IMG/VR virus record: IMGVR_UViG_3300009149_000011
Span: 32,001 to 96,000 of that record
Length of the DNA stretch: 64,000 nt
Origin: a virus
Direction: 5' to 3' (one strand)
The notes beneath the pieces are model-generated. The model did not search any database. It saw nothing but the letters and a program-made list of their open reading frames with translations, and was not told the DNA's origin. The position numbers and the translations under genes are program-made. Below are positions 30,266-33,450 of this stretch, in pieces (positions within the stretch are counted from its first letter, which is position 1; each line of letters opens with the position of its first letter).

Positions 30266-30338
30266 AGGGAGTGATGGGGCTCGAACCCACGACCACGGTG
30301 TTAGAGACCGCTGTTCTAACCAGCTGAACTACACTCCC
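30266..30338 (-). tRNA. amber suppressor tRNA (CTA)
   Basis: GCGGT-CTCTAAC-ACCGT in a full cloverleaf; anticodon 30304-30302. Confidence 0.88.
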
Positions 30339-30409
30339 ATATACTTCTATAACGAATGAATGTTATATTTGTTGCATGTATTGTAAAATATTGTATAGCA
30401 AGTAATGTT

Positions 30410-31318
30410 TTATATACTATTCAGTAGATCTGAGATGTATTTTGGAGGAGTTTCTTCTGGATCATTATCGTTTTCAACAGATCCTTTAATCCACTCAGAA
30501 ATGTCAGCAATGTCGTTTAGATCGTATTTATCATCCAATCCCGACTCTTTCATTTGATCTAGCCAAGCACTCCACGCTTTTTCTCTACCTTTCTCAACCA
30601 AGTCATACAAAAACCCTTTTAGTAAAGGGTTGTTTATTTTTTCTAATACAGATTTATCAATATGCTTATCATTTGAATCATTAAAAGCTTTTTCTAATTC
30701 ATTAAACCAAGCTTTTATTTCTGGTTTTAGATCAAGCTTTTCTAGTATAATAACAAAAAACTCTTTATCTCTATCTGTGTTGAATTTCTTTACATCATAA
30801 ACATCCGCTATATGATTATTTGTCTTCCCTTTAACTTTCATAGCATTTACTGCTTCTGATTTATCGGAGGTTATCTTCATTACCTTTCCATCTCCAATAT
30901 CATGAGCTGGCCCAAACATCCCCTTCCCTATAAAAGAAGATTTTTCAATACCCATTTTAGATTTTATTTTATCTAACATAGTTTCTTCATTCAAGTCTAA
31001 CCCCTCTGGCTCCTGATTAAAAGAAGAATAGTAATCACCAAACCCAAGATCGAAAACACCTAGATTTCCATTTGTTTTAATTCCTAAATTATCGACATTA
31101 ATAAAGTCTTTAGAATCAATACCACTTTCCCTTACTTCAGATACTAATGAGATAAATTGCTGTAGCACTTTCTTTAACTTATCATCCAACATGGGAACTT
31201 CAAACAATGAAGCGTCAGACCCATCATGTATATTAGAAATAAAGTCTTTAAAACTAACTTTCTTTTGCTCTAATAAAGCTCTTCTAACCTCTTCTTGTAT
31301 GATGTTTATAATATCCAT
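30410..31318 (-). CDS. protein-kinase-like protein with permuted motif order
   Basis: DFINVDN..VFDLG precedes FIGKGMFG..VMK. Confidence 0.55.
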   Translation of the reverse strand: MDIINIIQEEVRRALLEQKKVSFKDFISNIHDGSDASLFEVPMLDDKLKKVLQQFISLVSEVRESGIDSKDFINVDNLGIKTNGNLGVFDLGFGDYYSSFNQEPEGLDLNEETMLDKIKSKMGIEKSSFIGKGMFGPAHDIGDGKVMKITSDKSEAVNAMKVKGKTNNHIADVYDVKKFNTDRDKEFFVIILEKLDLKPEIKAWFNELEKAFNDSNDKHIDKSVLEKINNPLLKGFLYDLVEKGREKAWSAWLDQMKESGLDDKYDLNDIADISEWIKGSVENDNDPEETPPKYISDLLNSI

Positions 31319-31342
31319 ATATATAAATATTGTAAAATATTG

Positions 31343-31481
31343 TAGCGTAGAGAGGAGTCGAACCTCTACTTAATCATTATAAACATTAGAACCGCCGCAA
31401 GCAGGAGTTGCCCCAAATTTCACGCGCCATGAAACTCTTCTAATGCCTATTACTTTGGGTATACCCAATTGTAACTACGCT
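31343..31481 (-). ncRNA. large tRNA-like RNA (139 nt) with branched insert
   Basis: AGCGTAG/CTACGCT acceptor, AGAGG-TTCGACT-CCTCT, GCATTAGAA/TTCTAATGT closing three hairpins. Confidence 0.65.
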
Positions 31482-31573
31482 GGCCAAATAGTGAAAGCGG
31501 TTTCTCAATACCTCTGATTTAACCCTTGCAATGGGGTACCCTTTCATGCTATACCAGTAAACACGTACTATTG

Positions 31574-31649
31574 CGCCCAAGGAAGGATTCGAACCTCCAA
31601 ACATAAACTTTGCGGAATTTATGACATCATACCGTTTGATGTCTTGGGC
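31574..31649 (-). ncRNA. tRNA-like RNA with CCGCAA loop
   Basis: CATAAATT-CCGCAA-AGTTTATG. Confidence 0.6.
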
Positions 31650-31655
31650 AACTTG

Positions 31656-31733
31656 AGCTCCTGGAAGGGATCGAACCTCCGAACTTTCTAAACCTTGCGG
31701 GGTTTAGCGCTTATACCAACCAGCCACAGGAGC
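31656..31733 (-). ncRNA. tRNA-like RNA with CCGCAA loop
   Basis: CTAAACC-CCGCAA-GGTTTAG. Confidence 0.65.
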
Positions 31734-31739
31734 ATTTTG

Positions 31740-31812
31740 AGCGAAGGGGTAGAATCGAACTACCGTACTATAGGTTTGCGGACCTATCGCCTAACCACTC
31801 GGCAACCTTCGC
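31740..31812 (-). tRNA. tRNA-Cys-like with non-canonical CCGCAA loop
   Basis: ATAGGT-CCGCAA-ACCTAT, U73. Confidence 0.6.
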
Positions 31813-31823
31813 TTATAGGGTTC

Positions 31824-32258
31824 TTATTTATAGAACCCTAGCTTTTCTGCTTTAAAAGCTACTCTCGCAGCTTCAGTTTTCGCAAGAAGATCTTTATACT
31901 CTTTTCTCAAAGAATCAATCTTTTGCTCTTTTTTAGATTTCTCAACATAGATCTTATCCATATCTTGAACTCTTGTCTTTAGGAAGTGAAGAAGTATGTT
32001 CATAGATCTTCTAGACTTATTATGCAAGAAAAAGCTTATTCTCTTGGCAATTTTCTTTTTTCTGTTTTTTGATAGATGTGAGAAGCTCAACTTAGGGAGC
32101 TCTATGCATCCTATTTGTTTGCCATTCTTCTTAATGATGAATTCATTCTCTTTGCACACCTCATTCATAAGCTCTACCGCTTTAGCAACGTTTGCATTTA
32201 ACTCTTCGTTTGTGTATTGAAATCTTACACCTGTCATTTTTTTGTTTAAAGTACTCAT
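31824..32258 (-). CDS. basic hypothetical protein
   Basis: ORF. Confidence 0.7.
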   Translation of the reverse strand: MSTLNKKMTGVRFQYTNEELNANVAKAVELMNEVCKENEFIIKKNGKQIGCIELPKLSFSHLSKNRKKKIAKRISFFLHNKSRRSMNILLHFLKTRVQDMDKIYVEKSKKEQKIDSLRKEYKDLLAKTEAARVAFKAEKLGFYK

Positions 32259-32291
32259 TTTTCTTTTTGTTTAAATTTAAAATTACTTTAG

Positions 32292-32364
32292 TGAGGGCGG
32301 TGGGAATCGAACCCACCACTCGGAGATTTAGAGTCTCCAGCTCTAACCAATGAGCTACGCCCCC
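32292..32364 (-). tRNA. amber suppressor tRNA (CTA)
   Basis: GGAGA-CTCTAAA-TCTCC in a full cloverleaf; anticodon 32331-32329. Confidence 0.9.
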
Positions 32365-32573
32365 TTTTTTATTTTATAGATTATGTGATCTCCAAATCTC
32401 CCATCTTGGTCGGCAACCTCTCTATTGCCCTCTTTTCCCAACAAGTGGAACCCTTGTTCATCAATAGTATCTACGGTCCACCATCTATAACAACTTACCC
32501 TTGTTCGACCACCGCACATAATGTGCGGCTGTTCGAGTTTAGTCTTTACTTTATTTCCTATTTCTAATTTCAT
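32355..32573 (-). CDS. hypothetical protein
   Basis: Probable start MKLEIGNK; its TAG stop lies inside the suppressor tRNA 5' end. Confidence 0.55.
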   Translation of the reverse strand: MKLEIGNKVKTKLEQPHIMCGGRTRVSCYRWWTVDTIDEQGFHLLGKEGNREVADQDGRFGDHIIYKIKKGA

Positions 32574-32574
32574 C

Positions 32575-32835
32575 TTATCTGATTTTAGCAATTGTTTCAC
32601 CATTCTCTTCTTCAACTATCTCCAGCTTACCTCGAAACATTAATGATCCTCTTGTGTGATCGCTATCTGGAGTTTCTTTAGTGGAGAATCCAACTTCTGA
32701 ATCTAAGTGATTAATGTAGTATGACTTACCTTTGTGTTTGACAACCCACATTGGGATTGTGCTGTCTTGGTTAGAAGCCTTATTAAAATGGAACACGATT
32801 CTTTCTCTCTTATCGTATGAAAATATAGTTTTCAT
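32575..32835 (-). CDS. hypothetical protein
   Basis: AAGGAGG SD; ATGA-coupled to the Pth2-like gene. Confidence 0.7.
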   Translation of the reverse strand: MKTIFSYDKRERIVFHFNKASNQDSTIPMWVVKHKGKSYYINHLDSEVGFSTKETPDSDHTRGSLMFRGKLEIVEEENGETIAKIR

Positions 32836-33227
32836 GATATTACCTCCTTTTGTTTAGTACGTGAAATGGTATTTTTTAATGCAAGAGGAAGTTTCTTTAA
32901 AATCTTGGCAGACTTTTCCCCTGGCTCAACGGTGATTGACGTGAGCTCGTTATTCATATCTGGTTCGTAGAACTTAGAAAAGTTTACGTCAGATTCCTCC
33001 AATTGAGCGCATAGCTTTAACAGCGATGATTCATTCTCAACGGATAGACATACGATGTGTTTAAGATTGTGATACCAGTTATGGTATGATAAAGGATGCT
33101 CTTCGGCAAACTCATGAAAAGAATGTATAGATTGTGATAATTGGACTCCTGGAGCTAGGTCATCTCTTACAATCGTATAGAGCTTGTTGTGTTTCGAATT
33201 ATTATGGTGTACCTAATGCTTTTTCAT
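32832..33227 (-). CDS. Pth2-like peptidyl-tRNA hydrolase with in-frame TAG at codon 5
   Basis: MKKH*VHHNNSKHNKLYTIVRDDLAPGVQLSQSIHS..IVCLSV..FYEPDMNNELTSI..LKKLPL; TAG at 33215-33213. Confidence 0.8.
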
Positions 33228-33450
33228 AATTTTGTTTTTAATGTTTGTATTACTTTCAAATACTATAACGTAATAAAGTTACGTTTTGTTTCAATAAATA
33301 TCAACTTTTTTTAAAATAAATCAGAGAAGCTTCAGTTTGATCACTTAAATAGTGAAAAACACTATTGTCTCATTTTAACTCCTTTGATAATTTCATAATA
33401 CAAACATACGGTCTTGATTTGAATAATGCAATAGTGCAGGTAAATTTATT

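What the first reader, a model, noticed from the sequence alone, without database searches (positions are those of the whole stretch)
30266..33295. Amber-gated Pth2-like gene upstream of two amber-suppressor tRNAs
Seen: an unannotated Pth2-like ORF (33227-32832) starts ATG AAA AAG CAT TAG. No ATG/GTG/TTG follows before the conserved KLYTIVRDDL strand, so full-length protein needs TAG readthrough. Two intact CTA-anticodon tRNAs lie downstream on the same strand (32292-32364, 30266-30338). The ORF is otherwise intact and ATGA-coupled to the next gene. Other genes here end normally at TAG, so the genome does not look globally recoded. Inference: a conditional switch that makes peptidyl-tRNA hydrolase only when amber suppression is high or RF1 activity is low.
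Basis: partly seen in the sequence, partly recalled or inferred. Interest (0 to 1): 0.85.

Follow-up and report, generated by a model that had tools for sequence, protein, structure and literature searches.

The report
Suppressor-tRNA-gated phage Pth2 gene
A large phage that otherwise uses the normal genetic code keeps a UAG stop as codon 5 of a small tRNA-cleaning (Pth2-type) enzyme gene next to its own UAG-reading tRNAs, and dozens of distant phages, some lab-grown, keep an early stop here that matches their own stop-reading tRNA in every case where one was found, so the enzyme is probably made only when that tRNA overrides the stop.

Summary
Window 33227-32832 (-) reads ATG AAA AAG CAT TAG and then a 126-codon PTH2-family ORF. 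That ORF has no ATG/GTG/TTG before codon 75. Two intact tRNA-CUA genes lie downstream on the same strand.

The TAG is not an error or a pseudogene mark. Of 135 unique homologous loci, 70 have the same design: ATG, 1-9 sense codons, a stop, then a startless Pth2 ORF. The stop is TAG in 67, although TAG ends only 12% of ordinary ORFs in those loci.

The gate codon tracks the phage's suppressor. TAA gates go with tRNA-UUA, and TGA gates with tRNA-UCA (the latter also in cultured Atu_ph07). Where flanks allow a check, about 80% of Pth2-like genes, gated or not, have a suppressor tRNA within 1.5 kb, and 102 of 103 lie on the same strand.

The contig itself uses the standard code: 32 of 202 genes end in TAG and no other gated gene was found.

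A conserved 86-aa partner gene overlaps the Pth2 stop. In Rhizobium phage RHph_I1_18 that partner is itself TAG-gated.

The physiological role is inferred, not shown. I found no published description. This scan has flagged the same design on many other genomes (127 notes).

The parts
33228..33300 (-). AT-rich 5' leader with a promoter-like motif (..TAGTATTTGAA..) about 35 nt before the ATG; there is no Shine-Dalgarno sequence
   Evidence: Read from the sequence. Relatives have TAtaTTTAtA-like motifs at the same distance. Function is inferred only.
33213..33227 (-). The gate: ATG AAA AAG CAT TAG (start, 3 sense codons, amber at codon 5, next base G)
   Evidence: The same design occurs in 70 unique homologs, with a purine after the stop in 69 of 70.
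32832..33212 (-). Pth2-like ORF after the gate (126 codons plus TGA); no canonical start before codon 71 of this stretch
   Evidence: PF01981 28.1 bits. AF2 pLDDT 89. Pth2 fold, TM 0.67-0.76 to 2zv3, 1q7s, 1wn2, 3erj and 1xty. 1346 homologs at E<=1e-3.
32575..32835 (-). Conserved 86-aa partner gene ('X86'); its ATG overlaps the Pth2 TGA (ATGA) and it has its own AAGGAGGT site
   Evidence: Homolog directly downstream in 17 loci (the window and 16 others), overlapping the Pth2 stop (-3 to -7 nt) in 15 of them, 46-61% identity. AF2 pLDDT 87, small beta-barrel, no clear fold match.
32355..32573 (-). 72-aa ORF of unknown function between X86 and the first suppressor; its TAG stop lies inside the tRNA gene
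   Evidence: no Pfam or PHROG hit.
32292..32364 (-). Suppressor tRNA A, anticodon CUA, loop CUCUAAA, discriminator A
   Evidence: ARAGORN; Rfam RF00005 64.0 bits, full length.
31824..32258 (-). 144-aa ORF; weakly conserved neighbour of the module
   Evidence: 28-30% identity to ORFs beside the gated Pth2 in L008 and L070.
30266..30338 (-). Suppressor tRNA B, anticodon CUA, loop CUCUAAC, discriminator U
   Evidence: ARAGORN; Rfam 64.5 bits. Its acceptor and anticodon arms resemble the phage's own tRNA-Tyr(GUA), but it lacks the long variable arm.

Best explanation
This is a suppressor-tRNA-gated gene. Ribosomes start at the only canonical start (ATG 33227), make Met-Lys-Lys-His and meet UAG at codon 5. 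If the stop is obeyed, only a tetrapeptide is made. If one of the two phage tRNA-CUA decodes it, the 131-residue Pth2-like protein is made. The yield of Pth2, and perhaps of the overlapping 86-aa partner, would therefore follow the ratio of suppressor-tRNA activity to RF1 activity in the infected cell. Placing the stop right after the start makes failed attempts cheap. A purine after the stop is the classical good context for suppression (my recollection of Bossi 1983 and Miller & Albertini 1983; not checked here). Shown here: the anatomy, its conservation, the match between gate codon and suppressor anticodon, and the physical linkage to suppressor tRNA genes. Inferred: that readthrough happens, which amino acid is inserted, and the purpose. 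My best guess for the purpose is that the phage scales an extra, archaeal-type peptidyl-tRNA hydrolase to the level of stop-codon suppression. The enzyme would then clear or recycle peptidyl-tRNA that suppression generates, possibly the suppressor tRNA itself. The 0.75 below is for the gating mechanism; I would give the proposed purpose about 0.35.
For: Only start plus in-frame TAG; no ATG/GTG/TTG for 70 codons. Of 135 unique Pth2-like loci, 70 are gated (67 TAG, 2 TAA, 1 TGA); in the clade scoring at least 90 bits, 60 of 65 are gated. TAG ends only 12.4% of ORFs of 120 aa or more in those loci, so 67 of 70 has an uncorrected p of about 1e-56. The mini-ORF residues vary (MK, MN, MTH, MKQH, MKDT, MKKH, MI...) around a constant stop. 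The gated sequences span deep branches, with the window at most 49% identical to any other. Covariation: the TAA-gated L070 lies in a 675-kb phage whose only suppressor is tRNA-UUA; the TGA-gated L089 has tRNA-UCA 941 nt upstream; cultured Atu_ph07 has a TGA-gated canonical PTH2 (73.9 bits) and an opal suppressor; near-identical soil contigs differ only TAG versus TAA at the gate (L199 vs L186). All 47 gated loci that hold any suppressor hold a cognate one. A cognate suppressor lies within 1.5 kb in 32 of 42 gated loci, and any suppressor in 35 of 40 ungated loci; 102 of 103 are on the same strand. A scan for the same design finds essentially only Pth2 genes. Cultured Tenacibaculum phage pT24 has ATG AAA TAG before a Pth2 gene that GenBank annotates from an internal start, with tRNA-CUA 2.5 kb upstream.
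Against: There is no expression or proteomic evidence. The codon after the stop is ATT, ATA, ATC, GTA or GTT in 60 of 70 loci, so restart at a near-cognate codon after a start-stop mini-ORF is not excluded. One complete 518-kb phage (L010/G002) has a TAG gate but no suppressor among its 55 tRNA matches. The contig ends 32 genes in TAG, so strong suppression would extend its own proteins. The HMM alignment to solved Pth2 puts the canonical Gly-Lys loop in a 2-residue deletion with no conserved Lys, so ordinary Pth2 chemistry is not assured for this clade. The conservation statistics are not corrected for phylogeny.
Confidence: 0.75

Rival explanations
1. Start-stop leader with restart. The ATG...TAG mini-ORF is a separate upstream ORF. 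After RF1 terminates, the ribosome restarts at the adjacent near-cognate codon (ATT, ATA, GTA...), so output reports RF1 or IF3 activity rather than suppressor activity.
For: 60 of 70 gates are followed by ATT, ATA, ATC, GTA or GTT. In mycobacteriophages Bxz1 and Myrna the arrangement is ATG (or GTG) TAG GTG with a usable GTG right after the stop. G002 has a gate but no detectable suppressor.
Against: This does not explain why the stop is TAG in 67 of 70 loci against a 12% background. It does not explain why the stop switches to TAA or TGA with the suppressor's anticodon, nor why a suppressor tRNA sits beside the gene. Ten gates are followed by AAC, AAT, GGA, ACG, ACT, AGT or CTT; the window's GTA is not a known start codon.
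Confidence: 0.12
2. bar-like minigene sensor. The 2-5-codon ORF acts like lambda bar minigenes: short peptidyl-tRNAs drop off at the early stop, and the load on peptidyl-tRNA hydrolase somehow tunes translation of the downstream Pth2.
For: The mini-ORF is 2-5 codons long in 65 of 70 loci and sits in front of a peptidyl-tRNA hydrolase gene. From my own knowledge, not tested here: minigenes of this size cause drop-off and are toxic when Pth is limiting.
Against: No mechanism links drop-off to in-frame continuation. Stop-type specificity and covariation with suppressor tRNAs remain unexplained. The last sense codon is not conserved.
Confidence: 0.06
3. Dead gene or assembly error: a nonsense mutation or miscalled base in a metagenome contig.
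For: The contig is a single metagenomic assembly, and a TAG could arise from one substitution.
Against: The same stop is at the same place in 70 unique homologs from independent samples and in cultured phage genomes. The ORF behind it is intact and conserved.
Confidence: 0.02

Closest known systems
Stop-codon-recoded phages with phage-encoded suppressor tRNAs (TAG read as Gln, 'code 15'; crAss-like, Lak and other clades; Borges et al. preprint 10.1101/2021.08.26.457843; Peters et al. PMC9523058)
   Same: A phage tRNA that reads a stop codon lets genes with in-frame stops be translated. That preprint proposes in-frame stops as a timing or regulatory device.
   Different: In those phages 26-71% of genes carry scattered in-frame stops and the stop is depleted as a terminator. 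Here the contig keeps the standard code (32 of 202 genes end in TAG). Exactly one gene has one stop, at a fixed start-proximal position, and that gene family is physically linked to the suppressor tRNA. The preprint does not mention a hydrolase.
prfB (RF2) autoregulatory +1 frameshift at CTT TGA C
   Same: An early in-frame stop makes synthesis of a translation factor depend on how that stop is decoded. The same contig has an RF1-like gene with CTT TAG C followed by a +1 frame that carries PPT and GGQ motifs.
   Different: The Pth2 gate stays in frame and needs a tRNA, not a frameshift. Whether Pth2 feeds back on decoding of its own gate is unknown.
PTH2 genes of jumbo phages (Iyer et al. 2021, PMC7824862)
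   Same: The same protein family in large phages; those authors proposed ribosome rescue and peptidyl-tRNA clearance.
   Different: That paper reports no link to suppressor tRNAs (0 occurrences of 'suppressor') and no early stop. GenBank records annotate gated copies from internal starts or not at all.
Suppressor tRNAs of standard-code jumbo phages with no known target (XacN1, PMC5852040; Atu_ph07, PMC6102473)
   Same: These phages carry CUA or UCA suppressor tRNAs while using the standard code. The XacN1 authors state they could not identify target genes.
   Different: This work proposes a target. XacN1 ORF364 (Pth2 domain, 25.3 bits) has ATG AAG TAG four codons before its annotated ATG. Atu_ph07's Pth2 has ATG + 5 codons + TGA.
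Lambda bar minigenes and host Pth (my own knowledge)
   Same: A 2-5-codon ORF ending in a stop, functionally connected to peptidyl-tRNA hydrolase.
   Different: bar minigenes are free-standing and toxic. Here the mini-ORF is in frame with, and fused by readthrough to, the hydrolase gene.

Membership tests
PTH2 peptidyl-tRNA hydrolase (Pfam PF01981) | Sequence match above the curated cut-off over the whole domain | tested here: met
   28.1 bits against cut-off 23, profile positions 2-113 of 115. A profile of the clade hits PDB Pth2 chains 2zv3, 1rzw/3erj, 1q7s, 1wn2 and 1xty.
PTH2 peptidyl-tRNA hydrolase (Pfam PF01981) | Pth2 alpha/beta fold | tested here: met
   AF2 model pLDDT 89. Foldseek top 12 rows are chains of archaeal Pth2-family structures and human Bit1, TM 0.64-0.76, E down to 4e-8.
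PTH2 peptidyl-tRNA hydrolase (Pfam PF01981) | Catalytic Lys of the Gly-Lys loop before helix 1 and the Asp of the D-A-G motif (residues as I recall from the S. solfataricus work; not re-checked in a paper here) | tested here: inconclusive
   The HMM alignment puts the GK loop in a 2-residue deletion with a variable residue in its place. The acidic position aligns with an invariant E-P-D (E83, D85). R16, D18, Q27, H30 and T91 are invariant. The TGA-gated Atu_ph07 copy keeps the canonical GK and D-S-G motifs.
PTH2 peptidyl-tRNA hydrolase (Pfam PF01981) | Hydrolysis of peptidyl-tRNA | not testable with these tools
   Needs an enzyme assay or complementation of a pth(ts) strain.
Programmed stop-codon readthrough by a phage suppressor tRNA | In-frame stop inside a conserved coding unit, kept in homologs | tested here: met
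   70 of 135 unique loci; 60 of 65 in the close clade.
Programmed stop-codon readthrough by a phage suppressor tRNA | Cognate suppressor tRNA encoded by the same element, with the stop type matching the anticodon | tested here: met
   Two tRNA-CUA in the window. 47 of 47 gated loci with any suppressor are cognate. TAA goes with UUA; TGA goes with UCA. One exception has no suppressor found (G002).
Programmed stop-codon readthrough by a phage suppressor tRNA | Readthrough product actually made | not testable with these tools
   Needs mass spectrometry, a reporter or ribosome profiling.
Genome-wide stop-codon reassignment (code 15) | Many genes with in-frame TAG, and TAG depleted as a terminator | tested here: not met
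   32 of 202 genes end in TAG. TAG-sense translation gives no gain beyond that of TGA-sense. No other gated ORF in the 149-kb contig. The contig is estimated about 46% complete, so unseen genes are not covered.
prfB-type autoregulatory recoding | The product's own activity changes decoding at the recoding site | not testable with these tools
   Whether Pth2 or X86 acts on the suppressor tRNA or on termination is unknown.

The most novel reading that the evidence does not exclude
Pth2 and the conserved 86-aa beta-barrel partner form a hydrolase aimed at the phage's own suppressor tRNA. Because its synthesis needs that tRNA, the pair would be a negative-feedback governor that holds stop-codon suppression at a set level. 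Together with the RF1-like gene that frameshifts at UAG and the phage tmRNA, it would make up a phage-encoded circuit controlling how UAG is read during infection.
Probability: 0.15. Interest if true: 0.92.

Novelty: new variant of a known kind. Interest (0 to 1): 0.85.

Why it matters
Many large phages that use the standard code carry 'suppressor' tRNAs whose targets are unknown; the XacN1 authors say so explicitly. This finding offers a concrete, conserved target. It is a single start-proximal stop codon in a Pth2-family gene that sits beside the suppressor tRNA and whose stop type follows the tRNA's anticodon.

It also links peptidyl-tRNA hydrolysis to stop-codon suppression through a gene-tRNA linkage seen across very different phages, including Tenacibaculum, Agrobacterium, Rhizobium, Xanthomonas and Mycobacterium phages.

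It shows that current annotations truncate or miss these genes.

It points to lab-grown systems (pT24, Atu_ph07, RHph_I1_18, Bxz1/Myrna) where the switch can be tested directly. It may also represent an early, single-gene stage on the road to stop-codon reassignment.

Tried and rejected
- **Close relatives of the window's own genes:** none were found in IMG/VR with the window's Pth2, the 383-aa or the 302-aa neighbour as single queries. megablast against GenBank phages found nothing. Relatives came only through P0002 and alignment A2.
- The DNA behind database proteins could therefore not be read.
- **The inserted amino acid is unresolved.** Comparing suppressors with the phages' own tRNAs gives no consistent nearest isoacceptor.
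- **Database homologs with Q at the gate position.** Forms such as MKHQI..., MTQI... and MKQI... at first looked like evidence for Gln. One cluster holds both a 114-aa 'MKHQ...' form and a 102-aa form of the same protein starting at an internal GTG. The Q may therefore be a TAG=Q gene call, and I do not use it.
- **X86 function is unknown.** No Pfam or PHROG hit. The ESM Atlas was uninformative. Foldseek and VIA-align give only weak OB-like beta-barrel resemblances, Z at most 4.6.
- **The domain fused to Pth2 in pT24 and XacN1** has no Pfam or PDB match, only phrog_14850 of unknown function.
- **A second candidate gate** at G000:135941 (ATG TAG ATT) is a chance overlap of a gene end and a terminator, followed by a normal ATG.
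- **The bacterial genome scan** gave three matches on MAG contigs of about 7 kb and no host clue.
- **Terminator scan:** no terminator was found between Pth2 and suppressor A.
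Full report
**1. What is in the window**

On the minus strand, ATG 33227-33225 is followed by AAA AAG CAT and then TAG (33215-33213). An open frame of 126 codons runs from there to TGA 32834-32832. The first ATG/GTG/TTG after the TAG is the TTG at 33002, 70 codons downstream and well inside the conserved domain.

The post-TAG ORF matches Pfam PTH2 above the curated cut-off: 28.1 against 23 bits, profile positions 2-113 of 115, beginning at the Lys of the KLY strand. 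An AlphaFold model built on 16 homologs has pLDDT 89. Its top 12 Foldseek rows are chains of archaeal Pth2-family structures and human Bit1 (TM 0.64-0.76).

Two tRNA genes with anticodon CTA lie downstream on the same strand, at 32292-32364 and 30266-30338. Each is a full-length Rfam tRNA match of 64 bits. The TGA of the Pth2 ORF overlaps the ATG of the next gene (ATGA).

**2. The genome uses the standard code**

The window is bases 32001-96000 of a 149-kb IMG/VR virus contig, estimated about 46% complete.
- Reading TAG as sense gives no ORF-coverage gain beyond what reading TGA as sense gives.
- It joins only a handful of neighbouring ORFs.
- A simple gene call gives 202 genes, ending in TAA 149, TAG 32 and TGA 21.
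- The contig carries 30 tRNAs. The only stop-reading ones are the two CUA tRNAs.
- Scans for other ORFs that lack a start behind an early stop find only the Pth2 gene with this design. One look-alike at contig position 135941 is a chance overlap.

**3. The early stop is conserved, so it is not an error or a dead gene**

HMMER against 1.84 billion representative proteins finds 1346 homologs. I fetched DNA for homologous loci from IMG/VR and JGI metagenomes. I classified each with one script and one HMM.

Of 135 unique loci:
- 70 have the same design: ATG, 1-9 further sense codons (1-4 in 65 of 70), an in-frame stop, 0-9 codons, then the conserved K-L-[YR] strand, with no canonical start after the stop.
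- 62 have an ordinary start.
- 3 are startless without an upstream ATG.

In the clade closest to the window (at least 90 bits), 60 of 65 are gated. The stop is TAG in 67, TAA in 2 and TGA in 1. TAG ends only 12.4% of ORFs of 120 aa or more in those same loci. That gives an uncorrected binomial p of about 1e-56.

The residues of the mini-ORF vary freely (MK, MN, MTH, MKQH, MKDT, MKKH, MI, MGFT...) around the constant stop. The base after the stop is a purine in 69 of 70.

On a tree, the gated genes cluster together and span deep branches. The window's protein is at most 49% identical to any other. Apart from three near-identical sequences with a second TAG, and L077, the gate is the only stop in the ORF.

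**4. The gate codon follows the suppressor tRNA**

- Among gated loci whose fetched DNA holds any suppressor tRNA, 47 of 47 hold a cognate one.
- The TGA-gated L089 has tRNA-UCA 941 nt upstream.
- The TAA-gated L070 lies in a 675-kb phage in which the only stop-reading tRNA among 40 is tRNA-UUA.
- L063 is TAG-gated and its phage has only tRNA-UUA. That tRNA should also read UAG by wobble (my knowledge).
- Near-identical soil contigs carry MKLNH-TAA (L186, L188) and MKLNH-TAG (L199). The position changes between stop codons but stays a stop.

Cultured phages show the same pattern:
- **Agrobacterium phage Atu_ph07.** A canonical PTH2 (73.9 bits) is preceded by ATG + 5 codons + TGA, with no start before the first strand. 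GenBank annotates it from an internal ATG that removes that strand. The phage's single suppressor is UCA (PMC6102473).
- **Tenacibaculum phage pT24.** It has ATG AAA TAG before a Pth2 fusion gene annotated from an internal start. One of its four tRNAs is CUA, 2.5 kb upstream.
- **XacN1.** Its authors could find no target for its two CUA tRNAs. It has ATG AAG TAG four codons before the annotated ATG of ORF364, which ends in a Pth2 domain.

There is one exception. The complete 518-kb phage behind L010 has a TAG gate, but I found no stop-reading tRNA among its 55 tRNA matches.

**5. A wider linkage: Pth2-like genes sit beside suppressor tRNAs**

I counted loci with at least 1.5 kb on both sides of the gene. 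A cognate suppressor lies within 1.5 kb in 32 of 42 gated loci, and any suppressor in 35 of 40 ungated loci. The suppressors are CUA, UCA or UUA. Of 103 suppressors, 102 are on the gene's strand. The suppressor is often the only tRNA in the piece.

This holds in mycobacteriophages too. Bxz1 gp154 has a tRNA-CUA 305 nt downstream, annotated 'tRNA-OTHER'. Myrna gp84 has one 130 nt downstream, annotated tRNA-Ser. Both have ATG (or GTG) TAG GTG at the start. The functional tie between this enzyme family and stop-codon suppression therefore goes beyond the gate.

**6. A conserved partner gene**

The 86-aa gene that overlaps the Pth2 stop (32575-32835) recurs directly downstream in 17 loci, the window and 16 others. 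It overlaps the Pth2 stop by 3-7 nt in 15 of them. It is better conserved than Pth2, with mean column identity 66% against 43%.

Its model (pLDDT 87) is a small beta-barrel without a convincing known fold. The weak resemblances are to OB-type nucleic-acid-binding domains, Z at most 4.6.

In the cultured Rhizobium phage RHph_I1_18 I found no Pth2 at this place. The partner gene is instead itself gated (ATG AGT GAG TTC ATG TAG, then the conserved IFHFNK motif). It is unannotated and lies about 30 nt upstream of a tRNA-CUA.

In the window this gene has its own AAGGAGGT site. Whether it depends on the gate through translational coupling is therefore open.

**7. How it most likely works**

Shown: the anatomy, its conservation, the codon-anticodon match and the linkage to suppressor tRNA genes.

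Inferred: ribosomes start at ATG 33227. At UAG they either terminate, giving a tetrapeptide, or accept a phage suppressor tRNA and go on to make the 131-residue protein. Output would then report suppressor activity relative to RF1.

The inserted amino acid is unknown. Suppressor A has a Trp-like anticodon loop and suppressor B a Tyr-like acceptor and anticodon arm. No consistent nearest isoacceptor emerges across phages.

The purpose is my best guess only. The phage may scale an extra peptidyl-tRNA hydrolase to the level of suppression, to clear peptidyl-tRNA produced by readthrough or to recycle the suppressor tRNA. A feedback governor on suppression is the bolder alternative.

One caveat concerns the chemistry. 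In this clade the canonical Gly-Lys loop is shortened by two residues and has no conserved Lys, though R16, D18, Q27, H30, E83, D85 and T91 are invariant. The catalytic role of that Lys is from my memory of the S. solfataricus work.

**8. Context in the same phage**

I checked the sequence. Frame 0 reads MEKITLEIKAAEGG... and ends at CTT TAG C (contig 16551). The +1 frame continues with a PPT tripeptide and GGQ.

RF-1 domain genes also occur in two of the four other phages searched, all of which carry gated Pth2 genes. At least one of the two has a frame break at TGA instead. The phage therefore has several devices that turn on how UAG is read. I did not analyse this further.

**9. Rivals**

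- **Restart at a near-cognate codon after a start-stop leader.** This fits the ATT/ATA/GTA bias after the stop and the G002 exception. It does not fit the TAG specificity, the covariation or the tRNA linkage.
- **A bar-like minigene sensor.** This lacks a mechanism for in-frame continuation.
- **Pseudogene or assembly error.** The conservation excludes this.

**10. Novelty**

Full-text searches found PTH2 noted in jumbo phages as a ribosome-rescue candidate (PMC7824862). They also found recoding proposed as a regulator of late genes. I found no paper linking Pth2 to suppressor tRNAs or describing the early stop.

Within this scan the same design has been flagged many times on other genomes: 127 notes in at least 106 genomes. 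Those are unchecked AI notes that I read after my own analysis. They agree with it but are not independent evidence.

Noticed in passing
window 31570-31812 (-) and 31335-31490 (-): Three tandem tRNA-like cloverleaves each carry CCGCAA in an abnormal anticodon loop (6 nt on a 6-7-bp stem, or 8 nt on 5 bp). ARAGORN calls two of them tRNA-??? (cgca), with Rfam tRNA scores of 49.6 and 37.7 bits. A fourth tRNA-like gene has an insertion of about 80 nt that contains the complementary CTTGCGG. They lie between the two suppressor tRNAs. Unexplained.
   Followed up: partly
G000 contig 16000-16700 (-), outside the window: An RF1-like gene is split by CTT TAG C. Frame 0 encodes MEKITLEIKAAEGG...; the +1 frame encodes a PPT tripeptide and GGQ. 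RF-1 domain genes in two other phages with gated Pth2 have SPT tripeptides, and at least one has its frame break at TGA.
   Followed up: partly
L052:3187-3978 (+) and L076:4923 (-): A repeated-zinc-ribbon, homing-endonuclease-like ORF is fused behind a duplicated 5' end of the gated Pth2 gene (ATG ACA CAC TAG + about 25 Pth2 codons). This suggests mobile endonucleases target this conserved locus.
   Followed up: partly
GenBank LC168164 (pT24 BPT24_235), MF403008 (Atu_ph07 AUZ95035), MN988519 (RHph_I1_18 10989-11315): Public annotations start the gated Pth2 genes at internal ATGs, removing the first beta-strand, or leave the gated partner gene unannotated.
   Followed up: yes
proteins P0050, P0152, P0153, P0154: The same protein exists in the database as a 114-aa form beginning MKHQI... 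and a 102-aa form beginning at an internal GTG. The Q is probably a TAG translated by a code-15-aware gene caller, so 'Q' at the gate in database proteins is unreliable.
   Followed up: partly
G000 contig 18293 (-) and 126777 (-), outside the window: Two long ORFs have 70 and 41 apparently coding codons with no canonical start behind an in-frame TAA. One continues a coding frame directly; the other follows ATG CTA TTT TAA. No UUA tRNA is on the contig. This could be an ATT start, TAA readthrough or chance.
   Followed up: no
window 32355-32364 (-): The 72-aa ORF upstream of suppressor A ends with a TAG that lies inside the tRNA gene (GGGGGCGTAG...).
   Followed up: no
G002 (518-kb phage of L010): 4818, 17799, 458935, 459026: Several tRNA-like genes have 8-9-nt anticodon loops (ARAGORN 'agaa'; CCUGAAAAA loops). 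This phage has a TAG-gated Pth2 but no CUA, UUA or UCA tRNA.
   Followed up: partly
L263:2343-2912 (pT24) and L260:961-1500 (XacN1): In pT24 and XacN1 the Pth2-like domain is fused, in opposite orders, to a domain of about 190 aa with HD[IL]GKP and HFPNHAQ motifs (phrog_14850, unknown function; no Pfam or PDB match).
   Followed up: partly
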